Of a stretch of 64,000 bases of DNA, positions 52,113-57,213 are shown one piece after another. A program made the position numbers and the translations under genes. Every line of letters starts with the position of its first letter. Position 1 is the stretch's first letter. This DNA is from a virus (taxonomy: Duplodnaviria > Caudoviricetes), in the IMG/VR virus record IMGVR_UViG_3300036793_000065, positions 7,460 to 71,459 of that record. The stretch is one strand, 5' to 3'. The notes below the pieces were generated by a model. The model was not told where the DNA came from. It did no database searches and was given only the letters and a program-made list of their open reading frames with translations.

Positions 52113-52531
52113 ACATGCAGTGGCGTCATGCGCTGGAGATCGGAAACGGGCTCTGGACGATTGTGGCGGCCTATCTCGTGGTGTTCATCGCCTACCATTT
52201 GATCGTTGTCGGGGCGCAGCGGCGCCTCAAGATCGGCGACTGGCTCAATCTCCCGCTTTCGATGCAGCTTGCGTTCGGCACATGGGTGGCCGGCGTCGGC
52301 GTGCTGATGACGCGCGCGGTGGTGTGGACCGCGCGATATTCCAACGACGGATTTTTGCAGCTTGACGATATCGAGACGGCGGTCTTCTCGCTGGGAATCT
52401 TCGTGGGGTTGGCTGGATTTTTATGCATCCTCCGCGTTGCCACCAAGCCGGTGCTTGGGCATTGGCCGTGGGTCAGCTGCCTGACCTGCTGTTCGTTCTA
52501 TCTGCTGTGGTCGCTGGCGCGGATAGGGTGA
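52109..52531 (+). CDS. 4-TM membrane protein
   Basis: four hydrophobic segments. Confidence 0.65.
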   Translation: MNMQWRHALEIGNGLWTIVAAYLVVFIAYHLIVVGAQRRLKIGDWLNLPLSMQLAFGTWVAGVGVLMTRAVVWTARYSNDGFLQLDDIETAVFSLGIFVGLAGFLCILRVATKPVLGHWPWVSCLTCCSFYLLWSLARIG

Positions 52532-52707
52532 TGCGGTGAGGCCGTAGTCATCCGGATTAATCCAGCGATCCAAATTGGCTATATCGCCAGCATGGTGGAC
52601 AGAGTGCCCTCATTCATGATCGGTGTGGTTGCGTTCGGCGTGACAATGTTCGCGTGCGCCATCTTGGCGCTGGTGCTCCACTAGGGAACGTTTCTGCAGA
52701 TGTCGTG

Positions 52708-52737
52708 TTGACATCGTGCTTACTCTGATCGTATAAG
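52708..52737 (+). promoter_or_regulatory. sigma70-type promoter of the RNA operon
   Basis: TTGACA(52708-13)-N18-TATAAG(52732-37). Confidence 0.75.
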
Positions 52738-52739
52738 CT

Positions 52740-53050
52740 CGACCCCATCGACCAATCGGGATTTCGCCGTGCAACATTTACGCACATATAGATCAGCCGC
52801 CATGCCGCTCAATCAGCGGACGTGGTCGTTTGCGTGCGAATCCGTGATCGATAGCCCCAAGGGGCGCAAAGACTAACCGGCAGCGGGCCCGCCCTCTGCC
52901 ACCCGGCAGAGAAAGACCCGCACAAAATCCCCCAGTGCGATCCTGCCAGAAGAATGCCGCTGACCGTCGCCGCGTATGCGCGTCCCGGCAGCTAGACCCG
53001 AGGTGTACGGTCGGCCATCTTGCCGAGCGTGGTTTCACAGGGTCGAAAAA
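52740..53050 (+). ncRNA. unidentified ~310 nt structured RNA heading the tRNA operon
   Basis: no credible ORF; stems CTCTGCC/GGCAGAG, GCTGACCGT/ACGGTCGGC, CCGCT/AGCGG, GCGGG/CCCGC, end pairing TCGACCC/GGGTCGA. Confidence 0.55.
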
Positions 53051-53060
53051 TGTTCTTCGT

Positions 53061-53132
53061 GCTGGCTTAGGTCAGTGGCAGACCGCGGCCCTTGTAAAGC
53101 CGATGTCCGGTGTTCGATTCACCGAGCCAGCA
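53061..53132 (+). tRNA. tRNA-Thr(TGT)
   Basis: GCTGGCT/AGCCAGC acceptor, loop CT-TGT-AA, TTCGA; 3' end CAA, not CCA. Confidence 0.9.
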
Positions 53133-53134
53133 CA

Positions 53135-53262
53135 AAGAGCATCCGCCAGCAACATCCTTCGCAGGTCCGGCCGGCCTCGAAACAATGCCCAGAGCACGGT
53201 TCGACTCCGTGGCCCCGCGGTGGTTGGGGTCCCCATTGGGGATGTTGCTGGCGAATGCTCTT
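53135..53262 (+). ncRNA. Y RNA (YrlA)-like element
   Basis: 22/23 bp terminal stem, GGCGAATG on the 3' strand, internal T-arm CACGG-TTCGACT-CCGTG. Confidence 0.5.
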
Positions 53263-53336
53263 GCCCCTGAAGCATTGTGACGATGCACCGCCTTCGTACC
53301 GCGGTGAGCCGGATTTGATTCCCGGCAGGGGCTCCA
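53263..53336 (+). tRNA. tRNA-Thr(CGT)
   Basis: GCCCCTG/CAGGGGC, loop TT-CGT-AC, T-loop TTTGA, CCA. Confidence 0.85.
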
Positions 53337-53406
53337 CGGATGAGACAGGCGTCAGCTCCGGCTGTTAGAGGGGTGGCAATCCTGTGCCGGTTACGACCGG
53401 TCCCCA
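53337..53406 (+). ncRNA. tRNA-sized structured element ending CCA, identity unclear
   Basis: ACAGG/CCTGT, CAGC/GCTG and CCGG-TTACGA-CCGG stems; no valid cloverleaf. Confidence 0.3.
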
Positions 53407-53410
53407 CAAT

Positions 53411-53484
53411 GCTGCAATCGTCCAGTGGCAGGGCACGGCTTTGGTAGGGCCGGGACCGGAGTTCGATCCTCCGTTGCAGCTCCA
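53411..53484 (+). tRNA. tRNA-Thr(GGT)
   Basis: GCTGCAA/TTGCAGC, loop TT-GGT-AG, CCA. Confidence 0.9.
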
Positions 53485-53485
53485 T

Positions 53486-53562
53486 GCGCGACTAGCCCAA
53501 CGGTAGAGGCAACGGTTTCAGAAGCCGTCCAGGTCGGGGTTCGAATCTCCGGTCGCGTACCA
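53486..53562 (+). tRNA. tRNA-Leu(CAG), short variable loop
   Basis: loop TT-CAG-AA, A73, CCA; ~6 nt variable region. Confidence 0.9.
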
Positions 53563-53566
53563 ATTC

Positions 53567-53643
53567 GCCCGAGTAGACCAACGGCAGAGTCCAGCCCTTC
53601 AAAACGGCTTAAGGTGCGAGTTCGAATCTCGCCTCGGGCACCA
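53567..53643 (+). tRNA. tRNA-Leu(CAA), short variable loop
   Basis: loop TT-CAA-AA, A73, CCA; ~6 nt variable region. Confidence 0.9.
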
Positions 53644-53644
53644 T

Positions 53645-53718
53645 GGTCCGTAAGCATTAAATTGATGCGCCAGTTTTACACGCTGGTGAAGGCGGGGAGG
53701 TACCGTCACGGACTACCA
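53645..53718 (+). tRNA. tRNA-Val(TAC), aberrant T-loop
   Basis: loop TT-TAC-AC; T-loop GGAGGTA; CCA. Confidence 0.85.
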
Positions 53719-53723
53719 ACAAC

Positions 53724-53798
53724 GCGCGCTTAGCTCAGCGGGAGAGCGCCGGCCCGACACGCCGGAGGCGGCAGGATCATCCCCTGCAGTGCGCACCA
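53724..53798 (+). tRNA. tRNA-Val(GAC)
   Basis: loop CC-GAC-AC; T-loop ATCATCC; CCA. Confidence 0.88.
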
Positions 53799-53802
53799 TC
53801 AT

Positions 53803-53876
53803 CCTTCCATAGCTCAATGGCAGAGCAATCGGCTGATAACCGATCGACCGCGGATCGTAACCGCGTGGAAGGACCA
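53803..53876 (+). tRNA. tRNA-Ile(GAT)
   Basis: loop CT-GAT-AA; T-loop ATCGTAA; CCA. Confidence 0.9.
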
Positions 53877-53889
53877 ACAGGAGAGACCT

Positions 53890-54015
53890 ATGGAAGCCCC
53901 AGAGAAGCTCCCTGACGGCGTTCACCGTCTCTCGGAGGAAAGTGCCGCCACCCTGGAGCGCGCTCACCAGCGGGCTCGGGAGGTCGAGGCGAAGCACCTC
54001 AAACCGCGGTCCTGA
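53890..54015 (+). CDS. 41 aa peptide inside the tRNA operon
   Basis: AGGAGAG SD; MEAPEKLPDGVHRLSEESAATLERAHQRAREVEAKHLKPRS. Confidence 0.55.
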   Translation: MEAPEKLPDGVHRLSEESAATLERAHQRAREVEAKHLKPRS

Positions 54016-54018
54016 TCT

Positions 54019-54093
54019 GGACCGCGAGTCGGATGGGAAGACGCACGCCTTTTAACCGTTGAGGACTCGGATCGAAACCGAGGCGGTCCTCCA
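54019..54093 (+). tRNA. tRNA-Lys(TTT), weak anticodon stem
   Basis: GGACCGC/GCGGTCC, loop CT-TTT-AA, T-loop ATCGAAA, CCA. Confidence 0.8.
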
Positions 54094-54094
54094 C

Positions 54095-54168
54095 GGACCA
54101 CAAGCATTAAGCTGATGCACCCGCCTCTTAAGCGGAAGAACACGGATGGTTACCGTGGTGGTCCACCA
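54095..54168 (+). tRNA. tRNA-Lys(CTT)
   Basis: loop CT-CTT-AA; T-loop ATGGTTA; CCA. Confidence 0.88.
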
Positions 54169-54173
54169 ATCAC

Positions 54174-54246
54174 GTCGCTGTACCCCAATGGTAGAGGGAT
54201 CAGGCCGAGAACCTGCTCAGTGGATGTTCGAGTCATCCCAGCGACA
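54174..54246 (+). tRNA. tRNA-Leu(GAG), short variable loop
   Basis: loop CC-GAG-AA, A73; 3' end CCG, not CCA. Confidence 0.85.
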
Positions 54247-54250
54247 CCGT

Positions 54251-54324
54251 GGTGCTATAGCTCAAAGGCAGAGCATCCGATTGTCAATCGGCAGACCGGG
54301 GATCGATACCCCGTAGCACCGCCA
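54251..54324 (+). tRNA. tRNA-Asp(GTC)
   Basis: loop TT-GTC-AA, G73, T-loop ATCGATA, CCA. Confidence 0.9.
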
Positions 54325-54328
54325 ATCA

Positions 54329-54374
54329 GGAGGCGTACCGTACAAGCGGATAACGGCGCCAGCCGGCCTCCACA
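54329..54374 (+). pseudogene. 46 nt truncated tRNA-like element (acceptor plus D-arm only)
   Basis: GGAGGC/GCCTCC-ACA with CCGT/ACGG D-like hairpin; no anticodon or T arm. Confidence 0.4.
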
Positions 54375-54375
54375 T

Positions 54376-54449
54376 CTGGGTGAAAGATTACGGCAGTCGG
54401 TGGGCCCTGGAAGCTCGCAGCGCGTGTTCGACTCACGCCACCCAGACCA
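54376..54449 (+). tRNA. tRNA-Pro(TGG)
   Basis: C1-G72, A73, loop CC-TGG-AA, CCA. Confidence 0.85.
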
Positions 54450-54453
54450 TTTT

Positions 54454-54540
54454 GCGTCATGCGATCCAGTAGATCGCGCTCCTGCGCGTGAGGTGCGCAC
54501 AGTAACGGCAAGAGGCTGGTGTCACGCACCGGGTCGACGC
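54454..54540 (+). ncRNA. 87 nt non-tRNA structured element
   Basis: closing GCGTC/GACGC; hairpin GCGATC/GATCGC; GGTGCG/CGCACC stem with inner pairing. Confidence 0.35.
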
Positions 54541-54548
54541 TCTCAATC

Positions 54549-54623
54549 GCGCTTCTAGCTCAACGGCAGAGCCCGCTGCTCATAACAGCTCAGATCGGCG
54601 TTCGAATCGCCGGAGGCGCACCA
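54549..54623 (+). tRNA. tRNA-Met/Ile2(CAT) 1
   Basis: loop CT-CAT-AA, TTCGA, CCA. Confidence 0.9.
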
Positions 54624-54982
54624 TGAAGATCATCGCGAAATACATCGCCGCTTTGGAGCCGCCGCTGCTGCAGCTCTGGATACACGACGCACCGCACCGG
54701 CGGATGCATCGAGCGGTGATCCAGCAATACCGGGTCGCGCTCTATGCGTCGATCGGCGCCGCGGCGAAGCTGGCGGGGGTGTCGCTGCCGATCGCACATG
54801 ATGTCGACCTGGATGTGCTGTTCGTCAACCCGGCCACTCCCGACCTTGGCAATGCCTATCTGGCGTTGGAGCAGGCCCTCGACGACAAGACGCTCACCAA
54901 GCCGGGCATCGTCATCGACGACAGTCTGATCCAGAAGGTCACGATGTCGAAATTTTTTCCGCAGGGTGAGCGGAAGCGATAA
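54623..54982 (+). CDS. RusA-fold protein (degenerate resolvase-like) inside the tRNA operon
   Basis: DVDLDVLF..PDLGNAYLALEQAL..GIVIDDSLIQKV; the second Asp and the Lys of RusA are missing. Confidence 0.7.
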   Translation: MKIIAKYIAALEPPLLQLWIHDAPHRRMHRAVIQQYRVALYASIGAAAKLAGVSLPIAHDVDLDVLFVNPATPDLGNAYLALEQALDDKTLTKPGIVIDDSLIQKVTMSKFFPQGERKR

Positions 54983-54983
54983 T

Positions 54984-55059
54984 GGTCCCCGAGTCGGATG
55001 GAAAAGACGGTGCTCTCCGAAAGCACAGATACGGCGTTCGAATCGCCGGGGGATCACCA
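54984..55059 (+). tRNA. tRNA-Arg(CCG)
   Basis: loop CT-CCG-AA, CCA. Confidence 0.9.
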
Positions 55060-55062
55060 AAT

Positions 55063-55151
55063 GGGCGAGAGAAGCGGAAGGGTTTCCGTCCTGGTCTCGA
55101 AAACCGCGGGTGCCTTTGGGCATGGAGTTCGAATCTACCCCTCGCCCGCCA
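55063..55151 (+). tRNA. tRNA-Ser(CGA)
   Basis: loop CT-CGA-AA, long variable arm GTGCC/GGCAT, G73, CCA. Confidence 0.88.
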
Positions 55152-55155
55152 ATTC

Positions 55156-55207
55156 CTGTTCGGCCGGATGTACGTCGACAGCGCGACCGAGTTCAAGCGG
55201 CGCACCA
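55156..55207 (+). pseudogene. minihelix-like tRNA remnant ending ACCA
   Basis: GCG..CCG-AGTTCAAG-CGG-CGC-ACCA plus an upstream imperfect hairpin. Confidence 0.3.
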
Positions 55208-55209
55208 AT

Positions 55210-55286
55210 TGCGGGATAGAGAAGTGGTCTATCTCACCAGCCTCATAAGTTGGAGAACGGGTGTTCGAATCGCCCTCCCGCAACCA
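55210..55286 (+). tRNA. tRNA-Met(CAT), initiator-like
   Basis: TGCGGGA.../CCCGCAACCA acceptor like fMet, loop CT-CAT-AA; lacks the three GC anticodon-stem pairs. Confidence 0.85.
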
Positions 55287-55291
55287 TCTTC

Positions 55292-55377
55292 GCCTCAGTA
55301 TCCCGCTAAGGACGCGGAGCCGCCTGTAAAGCGGAGGCCTTCGGGCTGGCCAGGATCGTTACCTGGATGGGGCACCA
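55292..55377 (+). tRNA. tRNA-Tyr(GTA)
   Basis: loop CT-GTA-AA, long variable arm GCC-TTCG-GGC, T-loop ATCGTTA, CCA. Confidence 0.88.
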
Positions 55378-55378
55378 T

Positions 55379-55452
55379 GCGGACAAAGGATTACGGCAGT
55401 CTCCCTCGTTGCCAACGAGGTGGCCCGCGTTCGACTCGCGGTGTCCGCGCCA
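55379..55452 (+). tRNA. tRNA-Gly(GCC), G73
   Basis: loop TT-GCC-AA, CCA. Confidence 0.9.
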
Positions 55453-55481
55453 ATTCAGTTGTGCGGAAATTCCGCATAGCT

Positions 55482-55557
55482 GCCCTGTTAGCAAATCTGG
55501 TGATTGCACCCGTTTGAAGCACGGAGGAGGCCTGTTCGAATCAGGCGCAGGGCACCA
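55482..55557 (+). tRNA. tRNA-Phe(GAA)
   Basis: loop TT-GAA-GC, CCA. Confidence 0.88.
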
Positions 55558-55562
55558 TTCCC

Positions 55563-55637
55563 GGGCCGCTAGTGATAACGGGAGCACACCGGTTTTGCAC
55601 TCCGGAGGACGGGTTTCGATTACCCGGCGGTCCACCA
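55563..55637 (+). tRNA. tRNA-Ala(TGC)
   Basis: G3:U70 wobble, loop TT-TGC-AC, CCA. Confidence 0.92.
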
Positions 55638-55644
55638 TCTTTGT

Positions 55645-55719
55645 TCTAGTCAACGCACATGGTGTGCGGCGTGCCTGTTAAGCATTGTGAGCGTGGTTCG
55701 ATTCCACGGACTAGAGCCA
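55645..55719 (+). tRNA. tRNA-Asn(GTT)
   Basis: U1-A72, G73, loop CT-GTT-AA, CCA. Confidence 0.88.
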
Positions 55720-55720
55720 T

Positions 55721-55794
55721 GCTGCTGTCGTCTAATGGAAGGATCGCGGTCCCTCAAACCGCAGGCACGGGGTCGGTACCCGTCAGCAGCTCCA
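55721..55794 (+). tRNA. tRNA-Glu(CTC)
   Basis: loop CC-CTC-AA; T-loop GTCGGTA; CCA. Confidence 0.88.
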
Positions 55795-55798
55795 TCAT

Positions 55799-55880
55799 GC
55801 ACACCTAGCCCCCTCGGCTACGAACCGAGAGCAAGGTAACCGGACTGAAAATCGGGGTTCGAATCCCCGGGTGTGCTCCA
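55799..55880 (+). tRNA. tRNA-Arg(ACG), D-armless with expanded variable region
   Basis: GCACACC/GGTGTGC, only 7 nt before the CTCGG-CTACGAA-CCGAG arm, ~23 nt variable region, canonical T-arm, CCA. Confidence 0.7.
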
Positions 55881-55881
55881 T

Positions 55882-55958
55882 CTGGGTATAGCTTAGTCCG
55901 GCAAAGCGCGTGCCTCGGGCGCACGAGACCGGGTGTTCGAATCACCCTACCCAGACCA
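55882..55958 (+). tRNA. tRNA-Pro(CGG)
   Basis: C1-G72, A73, loop CT-CGG-GC, CCA. Confidence 0.92.
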
Positions 55959-55963
55959 ATCAT

Positions 55964-56037
55964 GCCCGTCTCGTATAGTGGCAGTATGCCGCTCTCTGAA
56001 AGCGGAGGCCGTGGTTCGATTCCACGCACGGGTGCCA
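55964..56037 (+). tRNA. tRNA-Gln(CTG)
   Basis: loop CT-CTG-AA, G73, CCA. Confidence 0.88.
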
Positions 56038-56041
56038 ATAT

Positions 56042-56117
56042 GGTGAGGGGACAGGTCGGACCATGTCGCCGCCTGCAAAGCGGTCGTAAGCGGGTTCAAC
56101 TCCCGCCCTCACTTCCA
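56042..56117 (+). tRNA. tRNA-Cys(GCA)
   Basis: loop CT-GCA-AA, U73, CCA. Confidence 0.9.
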
Positions 56118-56118
56118 T

Positions 56119-56193
56119 GCCGTCGTCAGCCAACTGGAGAGGCCCTCGTCTTCTAAGCGAGGAACGGGGGTTCGAGTCCTCCCGACGGCTCCA
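56119..56193 (+). tRNA. tRNA-Arg(TCT)
   Basis: loop CT-TCT-AA, CCA. Confidence 0.9.
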
Positions 56194-56194
56194 T

Positions 56195-56271
56195 CTCGCC
56201 GTAGCTCAACTGGAAAGAGCCGCCGCCTCCTAAGCGGTGATGTCGGGGTTCGAGTCCTCGCGGCGAGGCCA
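56195..56271 (+). tRNA. tRNA-Arg(CCT)
   Basis: loop CT-CCT-AA, CCA. Confidence 0.92.
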
Positions 56272-56277
56272 ATTACT

Positions 56278-56366
56278 GGTGAGTTATGCGGGCGAGTGCC
56301 CGTCCTGCTTTGCTAAAGCAAGGGTGCCGGCAACGGCATGGGGATCGAGACCTCAACTCACCGCCA
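56278..56366 (+). tRNA. tRNA-Ser(GCT)
   Basis: loop TT-GCT-AA, long variable arm, G73, T-loop ATCGAGA, CCA. Confidence 0.85.
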
Positions 56367-56450
56367 CAACCTGCGGTAAATGATCCGAACCTGATCAAAA
56401 TCAGCTATGTTTGCAGTGTAAGTATTTGACGGATTAGGTGATCCGTTCAT

Positions 56451-56525
56451 GCGGGTATGGCGTACTGGTGTGCGTGCTTGGCTTCCAACCAAGCGGTGGG
56501 AGTTCGATCCTCCCTGCCCGCGCCA
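56451..56525 (+). tRNA. tRNA-Gly(TCC), G73
   Basis: loop CT-TCC-AA, CCA. Confidence 0.9.
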
Positions 56526-56526
56526 T

Positions 56527-56601
56527 GGACTACTGGTGCAATGGCTAGCATCCCGCTCCTTCAAAGCGGAGAAGACGGGTCGGAACCGTCGTGGTCCACC
56601 A
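56527..56601 (+). tRNA. tRNA-Glu(TTC)
   Basis: loop CC-TTC-AA; T-loop GTCGGAA; CCA. Confidence 0.88.
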
Positions 56602-56606
56602 ATTGA

Positions 56607-56677
56607 TGCGGCAGGTCTGGGACCCGACGGGCCTTTGAAGCCTGGAGAGCCCGGTTCGATCCCGGGTGCCGCTGCCA
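56607..56677 (+). tRNA. tRNA-Gln(TTG)
   Basis: loop CT-TTG-AA, unpaired 1:72, G73, CCA. Confidence 0.85.
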
Positions 56678-56678
56678 T

Positions 56679-56749
56679 CCCGATGCCTCCGGCGAGGAAA
56701 CGGCTTTCATACGGCTGTCAGGGCAGGTCGGCACTGCCCTTCGGGACCA
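56679..56749 (+). tRNA. tRNA-Met/Ile2(CAT) 3
   Basis: loop TT-CAT-AC; T-loop GTCGGCA; CCA. Confidence 0.75.
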
Positions 56750-56754
56750 TTTTT

Positions 56755-56831
56755 GCCGGTCATGCTCGATGGCAAGGGGCACGCGAACTGTGACTTCGTG
56801 GGACGGGGTTCGAATCCCCAGGCCGGTACCA
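56755..56831 (+). tRNA. tRNA-His(GTG), alphaproteobacterial type
   Basis: loop CT-GTG-AC; G1:U72, A73, no encoded G-1. Confidence 0.9.
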
Positions 56832-56835
56832 ATTT

Positions 56836-56909
56836 AGCGGTGAGAGCGTGGGCTTAGGCCGAACTCCAAATCCGGTATCTCGCAGGTTCGACTCCTGCCA
56901 CCGCTGCCA
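56836..56909 (+). tRNA. tRNA-Trp(CCA)
   Basis: loop CT-CCA-AA, G73, CCA. Confidence 0.9.
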
Positions 56910-56914
56910 AATAC

Positions 56915-56950
56915 AAAGCCCCGCGCCGACATCGGCAGCGGGGCTTTTTT
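56915..56950. terminator. bidirectional intrinsic terminator
   Basis: AAAGCCCCGC-GCCGA..TCGGC-A-GCGGGGCTTT-TTT between convergent units. Confidence 0.9.
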
Positions 56951-56979
56951 GTGCCCGAATTTGTGATGATTACGCGCAA

Positions 56980-57213
56980 TCAGCCGGCCTCTTCGAGGAC
57001 TTCGCTGAGCGCATCCTCCACGTCGGTGCCTTCGATATTCTCGTAAGCGACCACGGCCATGCGCCACATTGCCTCTTCCTGTGGGTGGGTGGCTTGATCG
57101 AACCGATAGCCATCCTTCACCTGATACCCCAGCAGGCAGTAGAACACGCGCGCCAGCGCGTTGGCGTCGGCCACGATTTGATGCGCCGTTCGGGGCTCTC
57201 GTTCATCGTCCAT
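56980..57213 (-). CDS. hypothetical protein
   Basis: AAGGAGAAG SD (MDDEREPRTAHQ...). Confidence 0.7.
   Translation of the reverse strand: MDDEREPRTAHQIVADANALARVFYCLLGYQVKDGYRFDQATHPQEEAMWRMAVVAYENIEGTDVEDALSEVLEEAG

What the first reader, a model, noticed from the sequence alone, without database searches (positions are those of the whole stretch)
52740..53050. Unidentified ~310 nt highly structured RNA transcribed first in the tRNA operon
Seen: directly downstream of TTGACA-N18-TATAAG and upstream of the first tRNA, with no credible ORF. Stems: 52805-09/52815-19; 52894-900/52905-11 nested in 52883-87/52917-21; 52959-67/53007-15 (9 bp); an alternative pairing 52919-23/52935-39 that competes with the nested stem; end pairing 52739-45/53040-46 (its 5' strand may partly precede the TSS). 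It does not match tmRNA, RNase P, SRP or 6S signatures that I can recognise. Established: phage tRNA clusters host large ornate RNAs such as GOLLD and ROOL. Inference: a new or divergent member of this class.
Basis: partly seen in the sequence, partly recalled or inferred. Interest (0 to 1): 0.7.

Follow-up and report, generated by a model that had tools for sequence, protein, structure and literature searches.

The report
Leader RNA with small ORF before phage tRNAs
The stretch in front of this soil phage's tRNA genes is a conserved leader not found in any known RNA family: a 35-codon reading frame followed by about 185 bases of folded RNA that runs up to the first tRNA, and it may let the phage tie tRNA production to translation.

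Summary

**Distribution.** Twelve further copies were found, all in related uncultured phages. Each sits behind a TTGAC-type promoter. Each is directly followed by tRNA-Thr, or separated from it by one inserted ORF in one copy. A complete related phage lacks both the element and all tRNAs.

**No known family.** None of 4227 Rfam families matches, here or in six homologues.

**The 5' third is a small ORF (52769-52876).**
- A GTG or ATG start sits at the same place in 13 of 13 copies, and none has an internal stop.
- Every indel is a multiple of three.
- Substitutions show little codon-position bias, and the nucleotide sequence is more conserved than the neighbouring gene. The frame is being kept, not obviously the peptide.

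**The 3' two-thirds is folded RNA.** Covariation is strong: 13 pairs show compensatory changes, and 0 of 500 shuffles reach the observed score.

Three hold up. The 9-bp stem and the end pairing are contradicted.

**Two further features.** The stop codon lies 2 nt before a pair of near-isoenergetic alternative folds. An invariant UGUUCUUC next to the tRNA is predicted to pair with GAAGAAUA and so close a three-way junction.

**Best reading (about 0.4).** A translation-coupled cis leader of the tRNA operon. No terminator was found.

The scan has flagged look-alike regions in another genome.

The parts
52708..52737 (+). Promoter-like element: TTGACA (52708-13), 18-nt spacer, TATAAG (52732-37)
   Evidence: Sequence read. 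TTGAC and GTA are invariant in alignment A2 while the spacer varies. The consensus scan does not call it. Whether it is used is inferred.
52741..52768 (+). 5' untranslated leader with a GGGA Shine-Dalgarno-like motif (52758-61). Its length and sequence vary between homologues.
   Evidence: A GGA or GAGA motif lies 3-11 nt before the start codon in 13 of 13 copies. The transcription start itself is inferred.
52769..52876 (+). Small ORF: GTG start, 35 codons, TAA stop inside the invariant GACTAA
   Evidence: Start codon (GTG or ATG) at the same site in 13/13. No internal stop in 13/13, while the other two frames have stops in 7/13 and 12/13. Lengths are 105 to 120 nt, always a multiple of three. 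All gap blocks in the nucleotide alignment A7 are 3 or 6 columns.
52781..52838 (+). Possible helices inside the ORF: CGCAC 52781-85 with GUGCG 52834-38, enclosing a long hairpin whose tip is 52805-09/52815-19
   Evidence: No covariation on the MAFFT alignment. Weak support on a model-fitted alignment: 3 double-change pairs, reached by 6 of 500 shuffles.
52854..52865 (+). Invariant small hairpin GCCC-CAAG-GGGC near the end of the ORF
   Evidence: 100% paired but never varies, so uninformative.
52879..52947 (+). Module with two alternative folds. Fold A: 52879-83/52896-900 (plus 52885-87/52892-94) and 52905-09/52943-47, enclosing 52919-23/52935-39. Fold B: 52879-83/52943-47, 52883-89/52915-21 and 52894-900/52905-11.
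   Evidence: The best structures of the two classes lie 0.4-2.4 kcal/mol apart in 9 of 11 copies. Helix 52883-89/52915-21 is 90.5% paired against 82.3% in shuffles (0 of 2000 reach it), with 3 of 7 pairs showing double changes. Neither fold exceeds the controls on the MAFFT or model-fitted alignments.
52949..52956 (+). GAAGAAUG, the 5' strand of the predicted closing helix (GAAGAAUA in the other copies of the window's subgroup)
   Evidence: Pairs with 53051-58 in the MFE fold of all 8 complete copies of the window's subgroup. Invariant within that subgroup, so there is no covariation.
52959..52992 (+). Hairpin arm: 52959-62 and 52964-66 pair with 52986-92, A52963 is bulged, and the tip helix is 52971-74/52979-82
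   Evidence: 7 pairs, 100% paired, 4 with compensatory changes (CUG/CAG, ACG/CGU, CCU/AGG; C-G to U-A).
52995..53044 (+). Second arm: 52995-99/53040-44, 53003-05/53036-38, hairpin 53007-15/53022-30, and the conserved internal-loop strand UGGUUU (53030-35)
   Evidence: helices 3 to 6 have 8 pairs with compensatory changes. The G-U pairs fit the + strand only.
53051..53059 (+). Invariant UGUUCUUCG, ending 1 nt before the tRNA. It is the 3' strand of the closing helix and resembles the first six bases of boxA.
   Evidence: Kept in 12 of the 13 copies, missing in L045. It is the only copy in the array. It matches GYUCUU of the consensus GYTCTTTAANA given in PMC5725501.
53061..53133 (+). tRNA-Thr(UGU), the first gene of the array. 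RNase P cleavage here would set the 3' end of the leader (inferred).
   Evidence: A tRNA-Thr (UGU or CGU) follows the element in every homologue that extends that far.

Best explanation
**What it is (confidence about 0.85).** A conserved leader of about 320 nt for the phage's tRNA operon. It is made by host-type RNA polymerase from a TTGACA promoter. It has three parts:
- a short translated ORF of 35-40 codons
- about 70 nt directly behind the stop codon that can adopt two competing folds
- a three-way junction whose closing helix uses the nine bases next to tRNA-Thr

It is a new RNA family, restricted so far to one group of uncultured phages from soil and other metagenomes.

**How it works (inferred, about 0.4).** It acts in cis.
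1. A ribosome that reads the ORF ends on a TAA only 2 nt before the first strand of the competing helices. It therefore covers that strand and decides which fold forms.
2. That choice sets how much transcript continues into, or is processed out of, the tRNA array.
3. tRNA output would thereby depend on how well the infected cell translates.

RNase P cleavage at tRNA-Thr would then release the leader with its 3' end held in a helix.

**Shown:** the conservation, the reading frame, the covarying helices, the alternative pairings, and the joint presence or absence with the tRNAs.

**Not shown:** transcription, translation, and any effect on tRNA levels.
For: **A family, always in the same place**
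- 12 homologues were found.
- Each lies behind TTGAC...GTA and before tRNA-Thr.

**The element and the tRNAs come and go together**
- A complete related phage has neither the element nor any tRNA.
- In two other relatives, opposite-strand genes follow the upstream 140-aa gene instead.

**Selection acts on the nucleotide sequence**
- The ORF is 88-94% identical in five of six copies (78% in L043), while the adjacent 140-aa gene is 70-78% identical.

**The reading frame is kept, but not obviously the peptide**
- 13 of 13 copies have a start codon at the same site, no internal stop, and a length that is a multiple of three, across at least 7 indel sites.
- The downstream part has lengths that are not multiples of three.
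- Differences are spread almost evenly over the three codon positions (522/452/582), and codon differences are 688 non-synonymous to 182 synonymous.

**The stop codon sits next to the competing helices**
- The stop lies 1-2 nt before the GGCAG strand in the 12 copies that keep that module.
- The two fold classes are within 0.4-2.4 kcal/mol of each other in 9 of 11 copies.

**The 3' half is folded**
- 92.8% of cells are paired against 80.5% in shuffles. 13 pairs have double changes. The covariation score is 0.40 against 0.17, reached by 0 of 500 shuffles. Slid controls stay at or below 0.08.

**Other points**
- The closing helix appears in every MFE fold of the window's subgroup.
- No known RNA family matches.
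Against: - No intrinsic terminator (hairpin followed by a U-run) lies on the + strand between 52740 and 53060. Classical attenuation is therefore not supported, and Rho-dependent control cannot be tested here.
- In L002 and L033 an endonuclease gene replaces the two-fold module, while the ORF and the 3' arms remain. The module can therefore be lost, at least for a time.
- L031 keeps the element although only two tRNAs remain.
- On ordinary alignments the two-fold module does not exceed the controls for either fold.
- The ORF has no run of regulatory codons. Rare codons at its start are strong only in the window's own copy.
- There is no expression data.
- All copies come from one phage group, so some of the conservation is shared ancestry.
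Confidence: 0.4

Rival explanations
1. It is a stable dual-function RNA that acts in trans. RNase P cleavage at tRNA-Thr releases a folded RNA of about 320 nt whose 3' end is protected by the closing helix. The RNA binds a host or phage factor and also encodes a micro-peptide. The tRNA array serves only as its transcription and processing context.
For: - Single-stranded linkers and loops are invariant (GCAAAGACUAA, UGGUUU, AGAAGAAU).
- The junction covaries and the closing helix encloses the 3' end.
- The element persists in L031 with only two tRNAs.
- Other structured RNAs sit beside phage tRNAs: GOLLD and ROOL (PMC12286853, listed).
- An attenuator RNA that also acts in trans is on record: rnTrpL (PMC6614838, listed).
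Against: - No complementary target of 9 nt or more was found for any linker within the window.
- The element is never found away from a tRNA-Thr gene.
- The 3' junction differs in sequence between the two subgroups, which is odd for a surface that binds a conserved partner.
Confidence: 0.25
2. It is an ordinary small-protein gene with a long structured 3' UTR. The 35-40-residue peptide is the functional product, and the downstream folds only stabilise the mRNA until RNase P cuts at the tRNA.
For: - Frame, start and stop are conserved in 13 of 13 copies.
- The C-terminal motifs QRTWSFA and IDSPKGRKD are widely kept.
- Some variable codons change only synonymously, for example CTC/CTA/CTT.
Against: - There is little codon-position bias, and non-synonymous to synonymous differences run at roughly the neutral ratio.
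- Third positions are invariant across the conserved blocks, although neighbouring genes have diverged to 64-81% amino-acid identity.
- L043 carries two Lys-to-Glu changes in the conserved C-terminal tail.
- Gene callers predicted the ORF on only two other contigs.
- About 185 nt of covarying RNA with invariant loops is more than mRNA stabilisation requires.
Confidence: 0.15
3. It is a processive antitermination leader. UGUUCUUCG is a boxA that loads NusB/NusE, and the folds help build a termination-resistant polymerase for the roughly 4-kb untranslated array, as in rRNA operons.
For: - The motif is invariant in 12 of 13 copies and is promoter-proximal in a long untranslated operon.
- GUUCUU matches the first six bases of the gamma-proteobacterial consensus GYTCTTTAANA (PMC5725501).
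- The RNA after the stop codon is C-rich (C 32, G 21 of 80 nt), which would suit Rho loading.
Against: - Only 6 of 11 consensus positions match, and the 3' half of boxA would lie inside the tRNA.
- The host, and therefore its own boxA, is unknown.
- L045 lacks the motif.
- The array holds no second copy.
- The motif is equally well explained as one strand of the closing helix.
Confidence: 0.1
4. It is a divergent member of the GOLLD/ROOL class of large ornate RNAs.
For: It lies beside a phage tRNA cluster and is multi-helical with covariation.
Against: - No match to either model at E<=10 in the window, or at E<=1 in six homologues.
- It is about 320 nt, of which 108 nt are an ORF.
Confidence: 0.05

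Closest known systems
Ribosome-mediated attenuators with a leader peptide (trpL, thrL, hisL; the Sinorhizobium trpL attenuator RNA rnTrpL also acts in trans, PMC6614838)
   Same: - A short ORF lies directly behind the promoter.
- Mutually exclusive helices lie next to its stop codon.
- It sits ahead of the genes it would control.
- The frame is conserved more than the peptide.
   Different: - No U-run terminator and no run of regulatory codons.
- The downstream genes are tRNAs, not enzymes.
- About 110 nt of additional covarying three-way junction follow.
- The nucleotide sequence of the ORF is itself almost invariant.
GOLLD and ROOL, large ornate RNAs found next to tRNAs in phages and prophages (PMC12286853)
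   Same: Phage context beside tRNA genes, several covarying helices, unknown function.
   Different: - No match to their models.
- Roughly half their size or less.
- Contains a conserved ORF.
- Always the first element of the operon, fused to the tRNA's 5' leader.
boxA/Nus antitermination sites of rRNA operons and other untranslated transcripts (PMC5725501)
   Same: A U-rich GYUCUU motif near the promoter of a long untranslated operon.
   Different: - Only the first six bases match.
- The motif abuts the tRNA and is predicted to be base-paired.
- No binding data, and the host is unknown.
Small stable RNAs encoded within the phage T4 tRNA gene cluster (recalled from memory, not checked here)
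   Same: Non-tRNA RNAs co-transcribed and co-processed with phage tRNAs.
   Different: No sequence comparison was possible. As far as I recall, those RNAs are shorter and no ORF is described in them.

Membership tests
GOLLD (Rfam) / ROOL (Rfam) | Match to the family covariance model | tested here: not met
   No hit at the gathering score, at E<=10 over 52500-57200, or at E<=1 in six homologues.
GOLLD / ROOL | Size of about 500-800 nt, non-coding | tested here: not met
   About 320 nt from promoter to tRNA, of which 108 nt form a frame-conserved ORF.
GOLLD / ROOL | Location beside tRNA genes in phage DNA | tested here: met
   Directly 5' of a 26+ tRNA array, in a 71-kb viral record with terminal repeats.
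Leader-peptide transcription attenuator | Short translated ORF just behind the promoter | tested here: met
   The ORF is conserved in frame, start and stop in 13 of 13 copies. Translation itself was not shown.
Leader-peptide transcription attenuator | Mutually exclusive helices overlapping or adjoining the ORF's end | tested here: met
   Two fold classes lie within 0.4-2.4 kcal/mol in 9 of 11 copies. The stop codon is 1-2 nt from the shared strand.
Leader-peptide transcription attenuator | Intrinsic terminator (GC hairpin plus U-run) as one of the alternatives | tested here: not met
   The terminator scan finds none on the + strand in 52740-53060. The hairpin at 53007-30 is followed only by GGUUUC.
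Leader-peptide transcription attenuator | Run of regulatory codons | tested here: not met
   No amino-acid run. Only the ACA-TAT pair is widely kept. Codon quality is low but not extreme.
boxA / Nus-factor site | Match to the consensus GYTCTTTAANA (gamma-proteobacteria, PMC5725501) | tested here: inconclusive
   6 of 11 positions match (GTTCTT). The host, and so its own consensus, is unknown.
boxA / Nus-factor site | Binding of NusB/NusE and resistance to Rho | not testable with these tools
   Needs biochemistry.
tmRNA, RNase P RNA, 6S, SRP RNA, T-box, Y RNA (YrlA) | Match to the family model or detector | tested here: not met
   ARAGORN finds no tmRNA. Rfam gives no hit in 52740-53060 at E<=10.
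Group I intron (considered because an endonuclease gene interrupts the element in L002) | Match to the intron model, and flanking exons of a host gene | tested here: not met
   No Rfam hit. The promoter lies directly upstream and a complete tRNA directly downstream, which leaves no exons.

The most novel reading that the evidence does not exclude
A phage gauges the host's translation with its own leader ORF. The ORF includes the conserved ACA-UAU codon pair, and tRNAs of the array read those codons. Ribosome progress to a stop codon set against a two-state RNA would then gate transcription or processing of the phage's tRNA array. That would be a feedback loop on tRNA supply, a form of control not described for any tRNA operon.
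Probability: 0.17. Interest if true: 0.8.

Novelty: new variant of a known kind. Interest (0 to 1): 0.6.

Why it matters
Phage tRNA arrays are common, and they are increasingly seen as tools for overriding host codon usage and for escaping tRNA-cutting defences. How their expression is controlled is almost unknown.

This leader couples a translated mini-ORF to a folded RNA, and it is gained and lost together with the array. That makes it a concrete, testable candidate for such control.

Even if it proves to be a trans-acting RNA, it adds a covariation-supported family, so far seen only in uncultured phages, to the short list of structured RNAs tied to phage tRNA clusters. It is also a caution: a region described as non-coding can hide an ORF whose frame is conserved.

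Tried and rejected
**Pattern scans**
- Most matches to the short-motif patterns were chance hits in AT-rich coding DNA: 15 of 18 (checked), plus L046 and L047 and L030 and L036.
- No match in cultured-phage records.
- No match in 185,579 prokaryote genomes.

**Identities considered and dropped**
- Group I intron, raised by the endonuclease gene in L002. Dropped: no model hit and no exons.
- RNase P, tmRNA, 6S, SRP, T-box and 5S resemblances. Dropped: by-eye likenesses only, with no Rfam support.

**Tests that gave nothing**
- Antisense targets of the conserved linkers within the window: only the trivial self-match.
- A second boxA-like motif within the array: none.
- Host inference from the endolysin: nothing found.
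- Homologues of the peptide: only two predicted proteins, both from contigs already in hand.

**Alignment limits**
- Deciding between the two folds of the central module on MAFFT or model-fitted alignments: neither exceeds the controls.
- A structure-aware MAFFT mode was not installed.

Full report
**Setting**

The window is bases 7460-71459 of a 71,459-bp IMG/VR virus record with direct terminal repeats. GC content is about 62%.

The record encodes tail fibre, virion and terminase-like proteins that are only distantly related to those of cultured phages of alpha-proteobacteria and cyanobacteria.

ARAGORN finds 26 tRNAs at 53061-56909, and Rfam adds a few more. The finding covers the roughly 320 nt between a promoter-like site and the first tRNA, tRNA-Thr(UGU).

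**Is it there, and is it more than chance?**

- TTGACA, 18 nt, TATAAG is present at 52708-37.
- Folding energy alone is unremarkable: the z-score is -1.8 on either strand.
- No Rfam family matches at E<=10, and ARAGORN reports no tmRNA.

The decisive evidence is comparative. Protein-anchored and pattern-anchored searches recovered twelve further copies from viral contigs, metagenomes and Logan assemblies: L002/L033, L008, L018, L031, L032, L037 (partial), L038, L039, L040, L041, L043/L044 and L045.

- Where the upstream DNA is held, nearly all keep TTGAC and a GTA motif at a fixed distance upstream (L045 read).
- Every copy that extends far enough is followed by tRNA-Thr.
- The element is better conserved than the protein gene next to it. 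The ORF part is 88-94% identical in five of six copies, against 70-78% for the adjacent 140-aa gene.
- Cultured-phage records and 185,579 prokaryote genomes hold no match.
- A complete related phage (70 kb, 71% identity in a 915-aa protein) has neither the element nor a single tRNA.
- In two further relatives, opposite-strand genes follow the upstream 140-aa gene instead.

Promoter, leader and tRNAs therefore behave as one cassette.

**The 5' third is a small ORF**

The frame 52769-52876 (GTG to TAA, 35 codons) is open in all 13 copies.

- A GTG or ATG sits at the same site in every copy.
- A GGA or GAGA motif lies 3-11 nt upstream of it.
- The other two frames carry stops in 7 and 12 of the 13 copies.
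- The start-to-stop distance takes five values (105, 108, 111, 114, 120 nt), always a multiple of three.
- Every gap block in the plain nucleotide alignment is 3 or 6 columns.
- Downstream of the stop, lengths are 175-210 nt with no such rule.

The peptide itself is not clearly under selection.

- Differences fall on codon positions 1, 2 and 3 as 522, 452 and 582.
- Codon differences are 688 non-synonymous to 182 synonymous. The ten closest copies give the same picture.
- The conserved blocks are invariant even at third positions.

So the frame matters and the nucleotide sequence matters. The amino-acid sequence perhaps does not. That is the signature of a regulatory leader ORF, or of a dual-function RNA.

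Codon quality is low (0.45-0.59, against a median of 0.68 for the phage's long genes). Only ACA-TAT is widely kept.

They show no covariation on MAFFT and only weak support on a model-fitted alignment.

**The 3' two-thirds is folded RNA**

In the nine copies of the window's subgroup (the interrupted L002 included), a structure of six helices over 52959-53044 is well supported.

| Measure | Observed | Shuffles |
|---|---|---|
| Cells paired | 92.8% | 80.5% |
| Pairs with compensatory changes | 13 | mean 7.0 (reached by 1 of 500) |
| Covariation score | 0.40 | 0.17 (reached by 0 of 500) |

Slid controls score 0.08 or less.

- The arm 52959-66/52986-92, with a bulged A, shows three fully different base triplets plus a C-G to U-A exchange.
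- The second arm is 52995-99/53040-44, 53003-05/53036-38 and 53007-15/53022-30. It carries a conserved UGGUUU internal-loop strand.
- The G-U pairs fit the + strand only.

GAAGAAUA (52949-56; GAAGAAUG in the window) is predicted to pair with UGUUCUUC (53051-58) in all eight complete copies of this subgroup. This closes the two arms into a three-way junction and ties up the bases next to the RNase P site.

In the second subgroup (L038, L041, L045) the arms differ in sequence. In L041 the 5' strand reads AGGACA and still pairs with UGUUCU, and L041's MFE fold keeps the closing helix with two arms. L038 and L045 fold differently. This is suggestive, not proof.

**The central module has two folds**

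Right behind the stop codon (1-2 nt) lie two copies of GGCAG and two of CUGCC. These allow two arrangements, which differ by 0.4-2.4 kcal/mol in 9 of 11 copies.

Its outer helix, 52883-89/52915-21, was tested with a fixed anchor rule. It is 90.5% paired against 82.3% in shuffles (0 of 2000 reach it), and three of its seven positions carry compensatory changes.

The competing local hairpin also keeps its pairing in all lineages.

On ordinary or model-fitted alignments, neither fold beats the controls, because most columns never vary. A switch is therefore plausible but unproven.

In L002 and L033 a 164-aa endonuclease gene (phrog_3322, E 5e-23) replaces this module. The module is therefore not indispensable.

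**Mechanism**

The most conserved block spans the end of the ORF, the stop codon and the first strands of the two-fold module. A terminating ribosome would cover those strands.

My preferred reading is therefore a translation-coupled cis leader of the tRNA operon.

Against it:
- no terminator is present
- the module can be lost
- the element survives where only two tRNAs remain

The rivals are a trans-acting dual-function RNA, a small-protein gene with a structured 3' UTR, and a boxA-type antitermination site. UGUUCUUCG shares only GUUCUU with the published consensus, and L045 lacks the motif.

**Novelty**

This is a new RNA family in a familiar neighbourhood. It works most like a leader-peptide attenuator, yet it fails that family's terminator and codon-run criteria. 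It also fails the GOLLD and ROOL models.

Notes from this scan show that look-alike regions heading a tRNA operon were flagged in another genome.

Noticed in passing
L002:6667-7161 (also L033): A 164-aa endonuclease gene (phrog_3322, E 5e-23, with weaker HNH and endonuclease VII hits) replaces the central module of the leader. It has its own GGAGG ribosome site, and its stop codon lies inside the next helix. It looks like a homing endonuclease that targets this conserved DNA.
   Followed up: partly
L045:1842-2047 (- strand): An ORF of about 70 codons has been inserted between the leader and tRNA-Thr. Its last codons overlap the 5' end of the tRNA, and the UGUUCUU motif is missing in this copy.
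   Followed up: partly
L031:1557-2144 (- strand): This relative keeps an intact leader but only two tRNAs (Thr and Trp), with a 133-codon ORF between them.
   Followed up: partly
window 53134-53262: A 129-nt insert lies between tRNA-Thr(UGU) and the next tRNA (53263-53333, found by Rfam only). In L002 and L008 the two tRNAs are about 10 nt apart. The Rfam YrlA model gives no hit here at E<=10, so the Y-RNA-like reading in another note is not supported by that test.
   Followed up: partly
window 55063-55147 (also L038:6220-6305): The Rfam tRNA-Sec model scores above its gathering cut-off (49.9 and 51.4 bits) where ARAGORN reports no tRNA. This may be a tRNA with a long variable arm rather than a true tRNA-Sec.
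   Followed up: no
window 53877-54173, 54624-54983, 56272-56450, 56602-56754: Several stretches of 150-360 nt inside the tRNA array have no detected tRNA. They could hold further RNAs or small ORFs.
   Followed up: no
window 52592-52684: A 30-codon, strongly hydrophobic ORF lies between the 140-aa membrane-protein gene and the leader's promoter. L002 has no room for it, since its promoter follows the gene's stop codon after 26 nt.
   Followed up: no
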